Source: Methanobacteriota archaeon
Lineage (GTDB): Archaea; Thermoplasmatota; E2; DHVEG-1
Assembly (NCBI GenBank): GCA_963769885.1
Contig: CAVYNH010000007.1
Span: 288,001-352,000 of the forward strand
Direction of reading: 5' to 3'
DNA length: 64,000 bases
Both the position numbers and the translations under genes were made by a program. The notes under the pieces are model-generated. The model saw only the letters and a list, made by a program, of their open reading frames with translations. It was not told the origin of the DNA and did not search any database. How positions within the stretch are numbered: the first letter of the stretch is position 1; each line of letters opens with the position of its first letter. This document shows positions 5,360 to 34,641 of this stretch, in pieces.

Positions 5360-6934
5360 ATGGGGGAAAGTACTTTGTGGCAGCCTAGAACAATATTGAT
5401 TCTTGTAACGTCCCTGCTTATTCTTCCATCCATCTTACCTGCGACTCCGACGAGTGGTGAAACATTATCTGATGGTCTTCTGGATTCCGCATGGCCGATG
5501 TACTGCCATGATACCAGGCATACCGGGAGAAGTCCGTATGCCCCAAGTGGGAACTGGCGCATCGAAAAATGGCGATTCAAATCGACCTGGGACATATTAT
5601 ATTCCTCCCCCACCATCGATAACAATGGCACGATATATGTTGGATTATGTGGAGAACACTGCACAGTTGCTATTAACTCGGATGGATCTGAAAAATGGCG
5701 AGCTAGTACCGGGGGTGTCGAGCATTCTTCACCCGCTATTGGAATTGACGGGACAGTGTACATCGGCACAATAGCAGGAAGACTCTATGCGATTAACACG
5801 AACGGCACAATCAAATGGTGGATTTCGCTTGGAAGCGGATGGGCATCCTCCCCTGCTATCGACAACGACGGTATCATCTACTGCCCTGTCTCAGATAGTT
5901 ATCGGCTCGCCGCAGTCTTCCCCAACGGAACCATTAAATGGTATTTCCACGCGCAATCCTATATCTTCACTGACCCAACTATAAGCGACGACGGCACCAT
6001 TTACATCGGCTCCAATGACGGATATCTCTACGCCCTCAACCCGAATGGTACTATGCGATGGAAATTCTATGGCGGCGGGACAAAAGGCGTCGCCTCTGCC
6101 TCCATCGCAGACGATGGAACAATCTATGTCGGGAGCACGGGAGGTTATCTCTATTCCCTTGCTCCTAATGGGACACTTAATTGGAAGGTCTACACCGGCT
6201 GGATTGGCGGATCGACCCCAGCAATCGCCGCAGACGGAACCATCTACGTCGGCGACCAGACACACTACCGACTCTATAGTATCGCTCCCAACGGGACCTT
6301 TAATTGGGCCTTCCAAACCGGCAACGACATCATGTCATCACCAGCCATTGATGCCCATGGGACTATCTATTGTGCCTCATGCGACGGCAACCTCTATGCA
6401 CTCAATAAGAATGGCAGCCTCCGCTGGGCATTCCATGCCCATGGCGATATCCAATCCTCACCTGTCATTGCCGAAGACGGCACTATCTACATCTCCGGAT
6501 CTTTTGCAGGATCAGGATCTACACCTGACTATTCATACTTATATGCTTTAGGCACCATGAACGACACACAACCCACCCTGCCAACCATTACCGGCGATGC
6601 AACCGGTCACGTCCGACGGACCTACGACTACACCATCACCGCCACCGACCCGGACAACGACACCCTCCAATACTACGTCGACTGGGGCGACGGCACCTTC
6701 ACGAACTGGACCACCCCGTCACCCTCCGGACACCCTATCACACAATCCCACACCTGGAAGAAACGAGGAACCTACACCGTCAAAGTCAAAGCCCGGGACC
6801 AATACCTCTGGGAAACCGACTGGGCCAACCTCACCGTCAAGATGCCGTACCAGCCGCCGCGGTTCCCAATCCTACATTGGCTCCTGGATCGGTTCCCAAA
6901 TGCCTTCCTGCTCCTCCACACAATCTTCGGATAG
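5360..6934 (+). CDS. Secreted PQQ-like beta-propeller plus PKD protein, tandem paralog of the previous gene
   Basis: Same architecture; near-identical C-terminal region (KVKARDQYLWETDWANLTVKMPYQPP). Confidence 0.85.
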   Translation: MGESTLWQPRTILILVTSLLILPSILPATPTSGETLSDGLLDSAWPMYCHDTRHTGRSPYAPSGNWRIEKWRFKSTWDILYSSPTIDNNGTIYVGLCGEHCTVAINSDGSEKWRASTGGVEHSSPAIGIDGTVYIGTIAGRLYAINTNGTIKWWISLGSGWASSPAIDNDGIIYCPVSDSYRLAAVFPNGTIKWYFHAQSYIFTDPTISDDGTIYIGSNDGYLYALNPNGTMRWKFYGGGTKGVASASIADDGTIYVGSTGGYLYSLAPNGTLNWKVYTGWIGGSTPAIAADGTIYVGDQTHYRLYSIAPNGTFNWAFQTGNDIMSSPAIDAHGTIYCASCDGNLYALNKNGSLRWAFHAHGDIQSSPVIAEDGTIYISGSFAGSGSTPDYSYLYALGTMNDTQPTLPTITGDATGHVRRTYDYTITATDPDNDTLQYYVDWGDGTFTNWTTPSPSGHPITQSHTWKKRGTYTVKVKARDQYLWETDWANLTVKMPYQPPRFPILHWLLDRFPNAFLLLHTIFG

Positions 6935-29453: not shown

Positions 29454-29573
29454 GGACCTGAGGCTATTCTTCACCCCTATAAAAAGCATTCCTCCAACAG
29501 ATTTTCCTCCAAAGAGGCTCAATGTACAAATATTTATTAATCTGCACGGATATTGAAGACGGGGGAACACATC

Positions 29574-31016
29574 ATGAACCACACACTATCGCATCTCTTC
29601 TTCGCCCTGTTCTGCAGCTTACTCTTCCTCGGCCAACTCACCATAGCTCAAGCCACGCCGACCAAGACCGCCTCGCAGCCGAAAAGCCTCGCCCTCTACG
29701 ACCTCCTCATCATCACACCCCAACAATACCTCAACGAACTCCGACCCCTGGTCACCCACAAGAACTCTCTTGGCGTGAGAACCAGGATGGTCTCCTTATC
29801 CGACGTCTACCACCAGGAGTTTTGGGGCCGCGACAACCCAGAGAAGATCAAACTCTTCATCAAACAAGCAGTCGAGGCATGGGGCATCAGCTACGTCATG
29901 CTCGTCGGCGACTTCACCCAGATGCCAATCCGCTACGTCTACAACGCGGACAACAACACCGGCTGGCCCGAGCCCATGTTCATCTCAGAACTCTACTACG
30001 CCGACCTCTACGACAGCACCGGCAACTTCTCCAGCTGGGACACCAACGGCAACGGCCGCTACGGCGAATGGTTCGGCAACACCTCCGAAGACCCCAACAT
30101 CGACCTCTACCCCGACGTCTACGTCGGCAGACTCGCCTGCCGCAACGCCGGCGAAGCCCGCACCATGGTCCACAAGATCATCACCTACGAGAACACCGCC
30201 TACAACGCCTCCTGGTACTACCGCATGGTCGTCTGCGCCGGCGACACCTACCCCGAGGCCCTCAACCCCAACTGGACCGGCTACGAAGGCGAAGAAAACA
30301 CCCAAGACGCCCTCGACAACATGACCGGCTTCACCCCCGTCAAACTCTGGACCTCGGACGGTTCCTTCACTGGACCCAAGGACGTCATCCGCGCCATTAA
30401 CAAAGGCTGCGGCTTCCTCTACTTCGAAGGACACGCCAACGCCTACCACTGGAGCACGCACCCGCCCAACGACCCCAAGAACTGGACCGACGGCCTCTCA
30501 ACCACCAACATGCACGACCTCCACAACGGACGCATGCTCCCCATCTGCGTGGTCGGCGGCTGCCATAACAACGAGTTCGATGTCACCCCCCGCAACATCA
30601 TCAAGGGCCTCCTCACCCAAGGCCTCCGCTACTTCCACCGTCACCCCGCCGGCGACTTCTGGCATTTCACCTGGATCAAGGAATGCTGGGGCTGGACCCT
30701 CACCAGACTCGCCATTGGTGGCTCCATCGCCACCATCGGCTGCACCGGCCTGGGCATGTCCAAAGAAGACAAAGAATCATTCAGCGGCGCCGGCGACTAC
30801 CTCGAACCCACCTTCTTCTACGAAGTCGGCACCAACCACTCAGACATCCTCGGCAAAGCCTGGGGCAACGCGATCCGTGACTACCTCAACCGCTACCCCA
30901 TCGACTGGAACACCAGGGCAGCCTGGGACTCCGCCATCGACGCCAAAACCGTCCAACAATGGGCGCTCTTCGGCGACCCCAGCCTCAAGATCGGCGGCTA
31001 CCCACCGACTTCTTAA
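29574..31016 (+). CDS. Secreted C25 (gingipain-like) cysteine peptidase
   Basis: Signal peptide; ELYYAD, PDVYVGRL, EGHA, GGCH, LFGDPSLKIGG. Confidence 0.85.
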   Translation: MNHTLSHLFFALFCSLLFLGQLTIAQATPTKTASQPKSLALYDLLIITPQQYLNELRPLVTHKNSLGVRTRMVSLSDVYHQEFWGRDNPEKIKLFIKQAVEAWGISYVMLVGDFTQMPIRYVYNADNNTGWPEPMFISELYYADLYDSTGNFSSWDTNGNGRYGEWFGNTSEDPNIDLYPDVYVGRLACRNAGEARTMVHKIITYENTAYNASWYYRMVVCAGDTYPEALNPNWTGYEGEENTQDALDNMTGFTPVKLWTSDGSFTGPKDVIRAINKGCGFLYFEGHANAYHWSTHPPNDPKNWTDGLSTTNMHDLHNGRMLPICVVGGCHNNEFDVTPRNIIKGLLTQGLRYFHRHPAGDFWHFTWIKECWGWTLTRLAIGGSIATIGCTGLGMSKEDKESFSGAGDYLEPTFFYEVGTNHSDILGKAWGNAIRDYLNRYPIDWNTRAAWDSAIDAKTVQQWALFGDPSLKIGGYPPTS

Positions 31017-31084
31017 CCTATTTTATCTCATTTCTTCGTAAAGATTTAAAAAGGAAAAGAACCATGAAAACAGGGGCATACACT

Positions 31085-32500
31085 ATGACGCATCCGCACC
31101 CGAAGACCACCATCCTCCTCATCCTCACCACCATCCTCCTCACCCCACTCCCAGGCCTCACAACCGCCCAATACACCCACGCACTGACCACACCAGAGCA
31201 GCCCACCCTCGGGCCCGGCATCTACCAACTCCTCATCATCACCCCCAAAGAATTCGCTAACGCCCTCGAACCACTCCGGGCACACAAAGAAACCATCGGT
31301 ATCCACACCCGCATCATCACCCTCACCGACCTCTACACCTACGCCCCCCAAGGCCGCGACAACGCCGAAAAAGTCAAACTCTTCATCCAACTCGCCATGC
31401 AACACTGGGGCATCCGCTACGTCCTCCTCGTCGGCGGCCGCAGCAGCCAGTTTCTCAACCGCTGGTACTGCCCCGTCCGCTACGTCAGCTCCAGCGACGA
31501 CTGGGAAACCCAATACCTCTCCGACCTCTACTTCGCCGACATCTACAACGCCACCGGCCAATTCTCCACCTGGGACTCCAACAACAACAACCTCTATGGT
31601 GAATGGTACCCCGGCGAGGCTGCCCTCGACACCGACATCGACTACACCCCCGACGTCGCCATCGGCCGCCTCCCCTGCCGTAACACCCGAGAAGTCACCA
31701 CCATCGTCAATAAGATCATCACATACGAGAACACCGCCTTCAACTCCACCTGGTATCACACCTTCCTCGTCGCCGCCGGCGACACCTACCCCGCCTGCAC
31801 CAACGCCAGCTGGGTCGGCTACGAAGGCGAATACTACGGCGACCGCGCCATCGAAAACATGACCGGATTCACCCCCACCCGGCTCTACACCTCAACCCAG
31901 GCCTTCCAAACCAAAGACGACATCATCACCGCCCTCCACGCCGGCGCTGGGTTCGTCTACCTCGTCGGCCACGGCAGCCCAAAACAATGGGGCAACCACG
32001 CGGCGAACAACACCACCTTCATCCAAGGACCAAACACCAATGACATGCGCAAATTCCGCAACGGCGACCGCCTCCCCATCTGCGTCGTTAGCGGCTGCCA
32101 CAACTGCCAGTTCGACGTCTGCCTCCGCCGCGGCCTGAACGCGACCCTCCGCTGGCGACAGGAATACATCCCCGAATGCTGGGGCGAACGCTCCCTCTCC
32201 ACCCGCAACGACGGCATGGTCGGCACCATCGGCGTCACCGGCCTCGGCTATACCAAAGAAGACAAACACTCCTTTAAAGGCGGCATCAACGAACTCGAAG
32301 TCGCCTTCTTCACCGCCTACGGCCACAACCACAGCCTCCGCCTCGGCGACGCCTGGGCCGCAGCCGTCACCTGGTATACTCACACTTACCCCGTCGACCC
32401 CGCCTCCCCCGGCGGCACCGACACCTGGATCGACTCCAAAGTCGCCAGCTCCTGGATCCTCCTCGGCGACCCCAGCCTCCAACCCGGCGGATACCCCTAA
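31085..32500 (+). CDS. Secreted C25 (gingipain-like) cysteine peptidase, tandem paralog
   Basis: SDLYFAD, PDVAIGRL, VGHG, SGCH, LLGDPSL. Confidence 0.85.
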   Translation: MTHPHPKTTILLILTTILLTPLPGLTTAQYTHALTTPEQPTLGPGIYQLLIITPKEFANALEPLRAHKETIGIHTRIITLTDLYTYAPQGRDNAEKVKLFIQLAMQHWGIRYVLLVGGRSSQFLNRWYCPVRYVSSSDDWETQYLSDLYFADIYNATGQFSTWDSNNNNLYGEWYPGEAALDTDIDYTPDVAIGRLPCRNTREVTTIVNKIITYENTAFNSTWYHTFLVAAGDTYPACTNASWVGYEGEYYGDRAIENMTGFTPTRLYTSTQAFQTKDDIITALHAGAGFVYLVGHGSPKQWGNHAANNTTFIQGPNTNDMRKFRNGDRLPICVVSGCHNCQFDVCLRRGLNATLRWRQEYIPECWGERSLSTRNDGMVGTIGVTGLGYTKEDKHSFKGGINELEVAFFTAYGHNHSLRLGDAWAAAVTWYTHTYPVDPASPGGTDTWIDSKVASSWILLGDPSLQPGGYP

Positions 32501-32566: not shown

Positions 32567-32782
32567 ATGACGCTTCCACTCGACGTCCTGGAGAAATCGG
32601 TGAACCAAAAAGTCAGCCTCCTCCTCAAGGACGGCCGCCACATCGAAGGCAAGCTCCTCGGCTTCGACGAATACATGAACCTCGTCCTCGACGAAGTGGA
32701 AGAATCCAAAGACGACACCAAAAAACGCCTCGGCCGCATCATCCTACGCGGCAGCAACGTCGTCAGCGTATCCTTTATATAG
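32567..32782 (+). CDS. Sm-like (Lsm/SmAP) RNA-binding protein
   Basis: Sm1 GKLLGFDEYMNLVL and Sm2 IILRGSNVV motifs; 71 aa. Confidence 0.93.
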   Translation: MTLPLDVLEKSVNQKVSLLLKDGRHIEGKLLGFDEYMNLVLDEVEESKDDTKKRLGRIILRGSNVVSVSFI

Positions 32783-32830
32783 CCCGTCCCTTCCGAAAAA
32801 AATATAAAGGGGTATCGCTTATTTACTCGT

Positions 32831-32912
32831 GGAAGGAATTGGGCTGGTAGTTGTTGTTTTGTTAGAGTGCATCCCATCCCCTCCTAGTGAGGCCAGCCGT
32901 CCTTCCCTTTTT
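32831..32912 (+). ncRNA. Candidate small hairpin RNA downstream of the Sm gene
   Basis: BRE/TATA-like cgaaaaa-aatataaa at about -30; stems GGAAGGA/UCCUUCC and GGCUGG/CCAGCC; U-rich loop; 3' U-tract. Confidence 0.5.
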
Positions 32913-32973
32913 CATACCATCCGTCTACAAACTTTTTAACACCACACACCATTTCTCTCCCACGACCTGACCT

Positions 32974-34641
32974 ATGCCCCGGACCATCACCGCCCAACGC
33001 GGCACCACCCTGCGCTGCCACAGCTGGAAACAAGAAGCAATCCTGCGCATGCTCGAAAACAACCTCGAAAACGCAGAACTCCCCGACGATCTCATCGTCT
33101 ACGGCGGCACCGGCAAAGCCGCACGCACCTGGGACTGCTACGACGCTCTCGTCACTACACTCCAAAACCTCGCCGACGACGAAACCATGCTCGTCCAATC
33201 AGGAAAACCCGTCGCCGTCTTCAAAACCTGGCCCACCGCCCCCCGCGTCCTCATCGCCAACGCCAACCTCGTCCCCCACTGGAGCGACTGGGACCACTTC
33301 CGCCAATACGAAGCCCTAGGCCTCACCATGTACGGCCAAATGACCGCCGGCTCCTGGTGCTACATCGGCACCCAAGGCATCATCCAAGGCACCTACGAGA
33401 CCTTCGCCGCCTGCGGCCAAAAACACTTCCACAGCGACCTCTCCGGCCGCATCGTCCTGACCGGCGGTCTCGGCGGTATGGGCGGCGCCCAACCCCTCGC
33501 CGTGACCATGAACCACGGCGTCTGCCTCGCCGTCGAATGCGACGAACACCGCATCGACCGCCGCATCAACGACGGCTTCTGCGACCGAAAAACCACGGAA
33601 ATTGCCGAGGCCGTCGACCTCGTCCAACAAGCCGCAGCGGACCACAAATCCCTTTCTATCGGCCTGCTCGGTAACTGTGCCGATGTCCTCCCACAACTCG
33701 TCAAAGAAGGATTCCATCCTGACATCGTCACAGACCAGACCTCCGCCCATGACGAGCTCAACGGATACGTCCCAGTAGGATTCGCCGGCAAGACGCTTCC
33801 TGAAGCGATGAAGCTTCGAAAGACGAACCCTGAGGAGTACATCGCTCGGTCCCTGCAAAGCATGAAGCAACACTGCAAAGCCATGCTTGATTTCAAAAAG
33901 AAAGGCTCAATCGTCTTCGATTACGGCAACAACCTCCGCGGCCAGGCTCAACGAGCGGGCCTGAAAACCGCGTTCTCATACCCCGGCTTCGTCGCCGAAT
34001 ACATCCGACCCTTGTTCTGTGTCGGCCGCGGCCCCTTTCGATGGATCGCGGTCACAGGGAACCCGGATGATATCAAGAAGACTGACGCCCTTGTCCTTGA
34101 CATGTTCCCAGAGAACTCAGTGCTCGTGAACTGGATCCGCCTCGCACAAAAGCATATCCCCTGGCAGGGGCTGCCGGCAAGGGTCTGCTGGCTCGGCTAT
34201 GGCGAACGGAAGAAGTTCGCACTCGCCATCAACGCGTTAGTTAGGGCTGGCGAAATCGGACCGATAGCCATCACCCGGGACCATCTGGACACCGGCAGCG
34301 TCGCCTCCCCCTACCGAGAGACCGAGGGGATGCGGGATGGTAGCGATGCAATTGCGGACTGGCCACTTCTCAATGCGCTGGTGAACTGCGCCGCGGGCGC
34401 GGATAGCGTCCATATCCACAACGGCGGCGGGGTCGGCATTGGTTTATCCACCCATGCCGGGATGGTGGTCGTCTGCGACGGCTCTGCCCAGACGGATGAG
34501 CGGATCGCCCGGGTGTTCACCACTGACCCGGGGATCGGGGTGGTTCGTCACGCCGATGCAGGGTACCCAGAGGCCCTTGACATGGTTGCTCGTTCTGATC
34601 TGAATCTGCCCATGCTTGCATGCCGGAAGAAAGAGAAATAG
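32974..34641 (+). CDS. hutU: Urocanate hydratase
   Basis: [53 protein letters not shown]. Confidence 0.96.

What the first reader, a model, noticed from the sequence alone, without database searches (positions are those of the whole stretch)
32781..32925. Candidate Sm-associated small RNA directly behind the archaeal Sm gene
Seen: an archaeal-type promoter (cgaaaaa, AATATAAA 32801-08) lies about 20 nt after the Sm stop, correctly spaced for a start at G32831. The predicted ~80-nt RNA closes with GGAAGGA/UCCUUCC and GGCUGG/CCAGCC stems. Its large loop carries a U-rich tract (AGUUGUUGUUUUGUUAG) and GCAUCCCAUCCCCUCC, and it ends in a U-run. hutU has its own TATA-like element (~32931-40), so this is probably not its leader. 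The Sm mRNA 3' end (AGCCCGUCCCUUCC, 32781-94) is complementary to the RNA's 5' arm. Known: Sm/Lsm rings bind single-stranded oligo-U. Inference: a dedicated Sm-RNP (snRNA- or Y-RNA-like) whose second loop segment could act as a guide or decoy.
Basis: partly seen in the sequence, partly recalled or inferred. Interest (0 to 1): 0.75.

Follow-up and report, generated by a model that had tools for sequence, protein, structure and literature searches.

The report
Phylum-wide archaeal sRNA pairing cdrS mRNA
This is a small RNA gene found across the archaeal phylum Thermoplasmatota, and in a few head-tail viruses, whose exposed loop matches, and has changed in step with, the mRNA just after the stop codon of a CdrS-like cell-division regulator (often directly before ftsZ2), so it most likely controls cell division by base pairing rather than being an Sm-protein partner.

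Summary
The element is real: a ~80-nt stand-alone RNA gene with its own BRE/TATA, covarying closing stems and U-run. It has no Rfam match and I found no paper on it. Covariance models find about one copy per genome in 117-124 of 151 Thermoplasmatota genomes and none in 41 genomes of another archaeal phylum. The invariant part is the loop core GUGCAUCCCAUCCC, not the U-tract. Its complement starts 0-24 nt after the stop codon of a CdrS-like RHH gene: in the cdrS-ftsZ2 spacer here, and in a plain 3' UTR where no ftsZ follows. RNA and site covary lineage by lineage (24 families, z about -9; perfect duplexes up to 33 bp), and a variant RNA predicted from one target was then found. The Sm-RNP reading fails: the U-tract is not conserved, most families lack Sm linkage, and three families keep the RNA with no detectable Sm. 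Two head-tail viruses carry copies. Expression and the sign of regulation are untested. The scan already reported this RNA and its ftsZ-leader match on other DNA (e1-984342, e1-5579548, e1-685278). The tie to the RHH stop codon, the Sm-less lineages and the viral copies did not appear in the notes I retrieved.

The parts
32567..32782 (+). Sm/Lsm (SmAP) gene, 71 aa; a neighbour in some lineages only
   Evidence: Pfam PF01423 E 6.5e-23; linkage
32781..32794 (+). Complement of the RNA's 5' arm after the Sm stop; incidental, not part of the system
   Evidence: Present in 1 of 41 Sm-linked loci
32794..32808 (+). BRE + TATA promoter of the sRNA
   Evidence: Fixed 38-39 nt spacing to the RNA start in 40 of 42 copies; TATA-like boxes visible upstream of most homologues
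32831..32912 (+). Small RNA gene (about 76-82 nt with the U-run); start and end inferred, not measured
   Evidence: Conservation block; model hit C7:320830-320910, 94.9 bits
32831..32847 (+). 5' arms of the outer (32831-37) and inner (32842-47) closing stems
   Evidence: Folding; covariation
32844..32853 (+). Auxiliary pairing segment, complementary to box 2 just 5' of the ftsZ2 Shine-Dalgarno in this order
   Evidence: Box 2 in 66 of 68 spacers; compensatory changes in f4, f10, f30
32852..32865 (+).
   Evidence: Length and U content not conserved
32867..32886 (+). Invariant loop core (seed) plus anti-SD-like CCUCCU; pairs with the site after the RHH stop codon
   Evidence: 14-mer in 79 of 87 homologues; mostly unpaired; 16-nt perfect complement at G000:C7:414690-414705
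32893..32906 (+). 3' arms of the inner and outer closing stems
32908..32912 (+). Oligo-U, probable archaeal terminator
   Evidence: Sequence; similar pyrimidine/U runs after most homologues; function inferred
32931..32940 (+). Separate TATA-like element of hutU
   Evidence: a TTTTAAGTA-type box recurs at this position in relatives
32974..34641 (+). hutU (urocanase), downstream neighbour, not part of the system
   Evidence: Pfam; the RNA occurs without hutU in other families

Best explanation
A trans-encoded base-pairing sRNA, transcribed from its own promoter. SHOWN by sequence: closing stems hold a single-stranded invariant seed; the complementary site lies on the mRNA of a CdrS-like ribbon-helix-helix regulator right after its stop codon; lineage-specific flanks of RNA and site covary. 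In this genome the site is in the 116-nt cdrS-ftsZ2 spacer (G000:C7:414602-414717, minus strand): box 1 in a hairpin loop, then a variable hairpin, box 2 and the ftsZ2 Shine-Dalgarno. INFERRED: pairing starts at the exposed loop and extends through the flanking arms. The most likely effect is negative. The duplex triggers processing or decay of the cdrS transcript from its 3' side and, where ftsZ2 follows, blocks ribosome hand-over or loading at ftsZ2, lowering CdrS and FtsZ2 and so delaying division. Sm is at most an optional chaperone. Viral copies would hijack the same switch.
For: Target found by blastn of the element against its own genome. Both boxes are kept in about 70 DHVEG-1 spacers (61/68 exact 14-mer, 66/68 box 2) with no conserved uORF frame. 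Phylum-wide matches with compensatory changes: 33-bp perfect duplex in G059, 20 bp in f10, 25 bp in G114, double change GCUCAUCCC/GGGAUGAGC in G090. Cognate pairs beat cross-family pairs in 24 families (z -8.6 to -10, 0 of 20000 permutations; composition-shuffled control z -1.4 to -2.9); median perfect run 13 nt against 6 in shuffles. Prospective test: f25 spacers predicted a changed core, which was then found with its own TATA and stems. The site starts 0-24 nt after the RHH stop in 16 of 16 cases while the next start lies about 49-247 nt away, and it persists where no ftsZ follows. In G090 the 5' arm pairs directly over the ftsZ Shine-Dalgarno, and in f11 seed matches overlap the ftsZ ribosome-binding region. 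In G000 the free Shine-Dalgarno is largely unpaired, so there is little to unmask; cofolding gains about 23 kcal/mol.
Against: The sign of regulation is not shown; in G000 the predicted duplex ends about 20 nt before the Shine-Dalgarno. The seed stays invariant where the cdrS site has lost it (f10) or no cdrS precedes ftsZ2 (f14, f32), so other targets or a protein also constrain it. In f17 the site is in the 5' leader of an RHH gene, and in f20 no site was found. The 47 pairs were chosen where both partners were identifiable, not blind. The RHH protein scores below the NCBIfam CdrS cut-off (36 against 100 bits); 'CdrS-like' rests on synteny.
Confidence: 0.7

Rival explanations
1. The same pairing in the opposite role: the cdrS 3' UTR/spacer is a sponge that titrates the sRNA, whose real targets are translation starts of many mRNAs (its core reads as anti-Shine-Dalgarno plus anti-AUG).
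For: Repeated seed sites in the spacers of f11, f16, f23, f33, f37, f22 and f24. Seed matches over start codons of other genes: ftsZ2 in f32, a 268-aa gene in two f10 genomes, an integrase-like gene in two f17 genomes. The seed is invariant even where the cdrS site has decayed.
Against: In G000 seed complements were no more frequent before genes than on the opposite strand (crude gene calls). Most lineages have a single site and extensive one-to-one covariation, as expected of a dedicated target.
Confidence: 0.12
2. Activation: box 1 is a decoy ribosome site (AGGAGG followed by two AUGs) or a nuclease entry site, and the sRNA masks it, stabilising cdrS mRNA or raising ftsZ2 translation.
For: Box 1 reads as a Shine-Dalgarno with AUGs at the end of cdrS; the short uORFs vary in frame. 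A duplex near a 3' end could shield it from the exosome (inference).
Against: Direct pairing over the ftsZ Shine-Dalgarno in G090 and f11. The known archaeal 3'-UTR case, sRNA257, lowers its target (PMC4152357).
Confidence: 0.12
3. One reading: a dedicated Sm-RNP (snRNA- or Y-RNA-like) whose function depends on Sm binding the U-tract.
For: The gene lies directly behind SmAP in about 9 families in more than one class. A short U-rich linker lies beside the seed in many homologues. Sm rings bind oligo-U (established knowledge).
Against: A U-run of 4 or more in only 20 of 86. RNA present and Sm not found in f6 (0/4), f14 (0/9) and f32 (0/15), confirmed with the Pfam model in 9 of these genomes. 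Second copies and most families are unlinked.
Confidence: 0.04
4. The shared motif is a DNA-level site (transcription-factor operator or repeat), and the two locations are copies of it rather than partner RNAs.
For: The same letters occur at both loci on the DNA, and RHH proteins bind DNA.
Against: The orientation is always antisense between the promoter-bearing copy and the mRNA. Stems covary and G-U pairs are tolerated. Lineage-specific flanks covary between the two loci over 20-33 nt, beyond an operator's length.
Confidence: 0.02

Closest known systems
Sulfolobus solfataricus sRNA257(1) / Sso1183 3' UTR (PMC4152357)
   Same: Archaeal trans-acting sRNA with long complementarity to a 3' UTR; target level inversely related to the sRNA.
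   Different: A single species and phosphate-related target. Here the pair is conserved across a phylum with compensatory evolution, the target is a cell-division regulator, and no sequence relation was found.
Methanosarcina mazei sRNA162 (PMC3510493)
   Same: A single-stranded region pairs inside a bicistronic mRNA that includes a transcription factor and uncouples the second cistron.
   Different: It masks the ribosome site of the transcription-factor cistron and also acts in cis. Here the site follows the regulator's stop codon and persists with no second cistron.
DicF of the E. coli Qin prophage (PMC12197685)
   Same: Small RNA pairing with an ftsZ-containing mRNA to restrain division; virus-encoded copies.
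   Different: Bacterial, Hfq-dependent, processed from dicB and prophage-borne. This RNA is a core chromosomal gene with occasional viral copies; no Rfam similarity.
cdrS-ftsZ2 locus of Haloferax/Halobacterium (PMC8406309)
   Same: RHH gene upstream of ftsZ2; that paper suggests substantial post-transcriptional regulation around CdrS.
   Different: No sRNA is described there. Two non-Thermoplasmatota-looking RHH-ftsZ spacers I fetched are only 11 and 20 nt and lack the site.
Sm-class snRNAs (U7) and Y RNAs
   Same: Small size, paired ends, pyrimidine-rich loop, U tail.
   Different: No conserved Sm site, present without Sm, no Rfam match, and an mRNA target with covariation.

Membership tests
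Trans-encoded base-pairing sRNA | Stand-alone gene with own promoter and terminator, no coding frame | tested here: met
   Fixed BRE/TATA spacing, U-run, indels of any length in the linker
Trans-encoded base-pairing sRNA | Conserved, accessible seed complementary to an mRNA encoded elsewhere | tested here: met
Trans-encoded base-pairing sRNA | Compensatory evolution between sRNA and target | tested here: met
Trans-encoded base-pairing sRNA | Discrete transcript and measurable effect on the target | not testable with these tools
Dedicated Sm-RNP RNA (snRNA-like) | Conserved single-stranded oligo-U Sm site | tested here: not met
   Run of 4 or more U in 20 of 86 homologues
Dedicated Sm-RNP RNA (snRNA-like) | Co-occurrence with an Sm/Lsm gene | tested here: not met
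   RNA present, Sm not found in f6, f14, f32
Dedicated Sm-RNP RNA (snRNA-like) | U-dependent binding by the SmAP ring | not testable with these tools
   Needs EMSA or CLIP
Any Rfam 15 family (Y RNA, DicF, C/D, H/ACA, riboswitches) | Covariance-model match | tested here: not met
   No hit at gathering score in the window; only a chance hit at E 9.1 elsewhere in the region
C/D or H/ACA guide RNA | C/D boxes or K-turn plus ACA, and an rRNA/tRNA target | tested here: not met
   No boxes among invariant columns; in single-contig G109 the 11-mer core occurs twice only, in the RNA and at the RHH site
Cis-regulatory leader of hutU / riboswitch | Always 5' of the same gene class | tested here: not met
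   Second copies and other families lack hutU; hutU has its own TATA
CdrS (target gene) | Score above the NF058555 cut-off | tested here: not met
   36.2 bits against 100, E 4.4e-9, best family hit
CdrS (target gene) | RHH gene directly upstream of ftsZ2 | tested here: met
   TIGR00065 above cut-off; the other ftsZ sits before spt5/rpl11-like genes, the known FtsZ1 context

The most novel reading that the evidence does not exclude
An ancient, phylum-wide, chaperone-independent RNA switch that acts miRNA-like on the 3' UTR of the cell-division regulator CdrS (and on ftsZ2 where it is co-transcribed), and that viruses of these archaea have copied into their head-gene operons to stall host division.
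Probability: 0.45. Interest if true: 0.88.

Novelty: new member of a known kind. Interest (0 to 1): 0.78.

Why it matters
To my knowledge no archaeal sRNA-target pair has been shown to be conserved beyond close relatives, and RNA-level control of archaeal cell division is essentially unknown. This pair spans a phylum that includes gut methanogens and abundant marine and sediment archaea. It names exact nucleotides for compensatory-mutation tests and gives a natural case for asking how archaea regulate through 3' UTRs and whether Sm proteins are needed. The viral copies suggest an archaeal parallel to DicF.

Tried and rejected
Rfam scans: nothing. The first alignment was invalid because those loci are not oriented; redone. 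A conserved uORF or leader peptide in the spacer was rejected because frames vary. Sm-mRNA/5'-arm pairing was rejected. Genome-wide enrichment of seed sites before genes in G000 was not seen (crude gene caller). 'ftsZ leader is the universal target' was rejected as too narrow. Family f11 first seemed to lack FtsZ at E 1e-60 but has a short divergent one. Most viral 15-mer matches are chance; only three contigs (two viruses) score well with the models. No RNA was found in f13, f21, f27, f29, f36, f39, f40 and f41 beyond weak hits; the models also missed true variants in f25 and f35, so this is not proof of absence. No hit in 41 genomes of another phylum or in 5 further archaeal genomes (Asgard, DPANN and one unnamed); Halobacteriota and Methanobacteriota genomes could not be centred on. 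Literature searches by topic and by sequence found no description. The sigma-70 promoter scan is not suited to archaea.

Full report
Observation. The 71-aa gene upstream is an LSM protein and the gene downstream is urocanase. The fold of 32831-32915 is as described, but its energy is not unusual (z -1.2), and Rfam has no match. Relatives settle that it is real. In 29 of the 30 Sm loci fetched from the family and order, the block recurs almost letter for letter while the surrounding DNA diverges. The BRE sits 38-39 nt before the first G in 40 of 42 such copies. Record titles place the organism among Thermoplasmatota sediment MAGs such as SM1-50 and SG8-52-3; from my own knowledge this is class E2, order DHVEG-1. 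A second stand-alone copy with its own promoter lies at G000:C6:295227-295297.

The target. A blastn of the element against its own genome gave a 16-nt match at C7:414690. On the coding strand this is the reverse complement of the loop core, in the 116-nt spacer between an RHH gene and ftsZ. The RHH protein's best family is halobacterial CdrS, below the cut-off. The ftsZ is FtsZ2 by synteny, since the other paralogue precedes spt5/rpl11-like genes. About 70 related spacers share one layout: box 1 (GGGAUGGGAUGCAC) in the loop of a hairpin whose stem varies, a second variable hairpin, box 2 (AACUACCA), then the Shine-Dalgarno. Box 1 is exact in 61 of 68 and box 2 is present in 66 of 68. The boxes are complementary to the RNA's two conserved segments. 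Upstream AUGs give no conserved reading frame, so the constraint is on nucleotides.

Range. A model built only from class-level relatives (R1) hit 117 of 151 genomes sampled across the phylum, mostly once each. Inspection of about 75 hits showed the same core inside different but complementary closing stems, usually with a TATA-like box upstream; a handful of the weakest were false or were target sites. A second model reached 124 of 151 (partly trained on these genomes) and 0 of 41 genomes of another archaeal phylum. The 14-mer core is exact in 79 of 87 aligned homologues and predicted mostly unpaired. The stems show 173 double-sided changes against 43 in shuffles (fitted alignment).

Covariation in trans. 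Where the RNA changes, the site changes with it. In f4 the core's first bases and the auxiliary segment both shift and the spacer follows, giving a 33-bp perfect duplex in G059. In f10 pairing moved to 20 nt of the 5' arm. In G090 a double change in the core is matched, and the 5' arm pairs over the ftsZ Shine-Dalgarno. In f11, which has a short divergent FtsZ, G114 has a 25-bp perfect match using the RNA's lineage-specific 3' side. Over 47 genomes in 24 families, cognate pairs beat cross-family pairs after removing row and column effects (z -8.6 to -10, 0 of 20000 permutations, one genome per family). A composition-shuffled control gave z -1.4 to -2.9, and the median perfect run was 13 nt against 6. 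These pairs were picked where both partners could be identified. One test was prospective: f25 spacers had a changed box and no model hit; the predicted variant core was then found in all three genomes with its own TATA and a new closing stem. A short version and its matching site also turned up in two complete f35 genomes.

What the site is tied to. It begins 0-24 nt after the RHH stop codon in 16 of 16 measured cases, whereas the next start codon is about 49-247 nt away. In f12, f22, f24, f26, f28, f31, f44 and f45 it lies after the RHH stop with no ftsZ following, often just before a hairpin and U-run; in f35 a small Cys-rich gene follows. Of 11 strong RHH orthologues checked, the 8 from genomes with the RNA had a full or partial site (weak in G093, whose second RHH paralogue has a clear one). 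The 3 from genomes without a good RNA hit had none. The constant target is therefore the 3' side of the CdrS-like mRNA, and ftsZ2 is affected where it is co-transcribed. Exceptions: f17 carries the site in an RHH 5' leader, f14/f32 have at most a 9-10 nt match over the ftsZ2 start codon, and f20 showed no site.

Sm. The gene follows SmAP in f1, f2, f3, f9, f16, f23, f33, f34 and f37 but not elsewhere. No Sm was found in f6, f14 or f32, also with the Pfam model in nine of these genomes, yet they keep the RNA. The U-tract is not conserved and the proposed Sm-mRNA pairing is unique to this genome. The old linkage leaves room for Sm as a facultative chaperone, but not as the defining partner.

Viruses. 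Among IMG/VR matches, two distinct head-tail viruses carry the f11-type core (24 nt) inside their own closing stems. One copy lies downstream of the major head gene, before a virion gene (L375 and L377, the same virus); the other lies between terminase and portal, with a TATA-like box (L399). The other matches are at chance level. Their hosts were not determined.

Mechanism. Shown: the gene, the seed, the site, its position and their covariation. Inferred: loop-initiated pairing (cofolding gains about 23 kcal/mol in G000) and a negative effect through 3'-side processing or decay of cdrS mRNA plus blocked ribosome access to ftsZ2. The sign rests on the direct Shine-Dalgarno overlap in G090 and f11 and on precedent, so activation and a sponge role for the spacer remain open. 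The repeated sites in several families and the invariance of the seed suggest further targets.

Comparison. It works like known archaeal base-pairing sRNAs: sRNA257 on a 3' UTR (PMC4152357) and sRNA162 inside a bicistron (PMC3510493). In target and viral copies it echoes DicF (PMC12197685). It is a member of none of these families. The CdrS paper suggests post-transcriptional control around CdrS but names no sRNA in the passages found (PMC8406309). Searches by topic and sequence found no description. Family labels are anonymous; reading f11 as Methanomethylophilaceae, f35 as Aciduliprofundum and f14/f32 as marine group II is my inference from genome size and gene content. I recorded the antisense reading before consulting scan notes; earlier agents reached the same ftsZ-leader idea on other genomes, which is not independent evidence. 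Verdict: a new sRNA family of a known kind, unusually deep and well supported; interest 0.78.

Noticed in passing
L032:2140-2215 (G000:C6 about 295150-295215) and L046, L058, L062, L080, L096: The second sRNA copy in family f1 has a conserved tandem ACATA-type repeat directly upstream of its BRE, like an activator site, so the two copies may be regulated differently.
   Followed up: partly
L031:2446-2580, minus strand (upstream of cdrS); L124-L174: The ~130-nt region before the CdrS-like gene carries conserved GTCAGACAAA and TGAC/GTCA repeats, candidate autoregulatory operators.
   Followed up: no
L375:3985-4040, L377:4340-4395, L399:4963-5033: Virus-encoded copies of the sRNA within head and packaging gene modules; hosts not assigned.
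   Followed up: partly
G049, G054, G056, G060 (f6); G094, G064, G141, G166, G131 (f32, f14): No Sm/LSM gene found in these 91-98% complete genomes, unusual for archaea.
   Followed up: partly
L364-L368: Family f11 encodes only a short (~240 aa), divergent FtsZ behind a double-RHH gene, plus a weaker tubulin-like hit.
   Followed up: partly
L615 and L618 (G179:C1 172590 and 190112): Identical direct repeats 17.5 kb apart contain the seed with an f11-type flank and overlap the start of a gene on the opposite strand; possibly an integrated element that carries or is targeted by the RNA.
   Followed up: no
L683, L684 (f10); L689, L694 (f17); L038, L076: Seed complements over or just before start codons of other genes (a 268-aa DHH-like gene, an integrase-like gene, small ORFs): candidate secondary targets.
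   Followed up: no
window 29553-32500: Two tandem secreted proteins upstream of Sm; the second is a peptidase C25 and the first looks similar.
   Followed up: no
L538:1087-1923 and 5689-6525: A viral contig has two identical integrase-like genes in inverted orientation about 5 kb apart.
   Followed up: no
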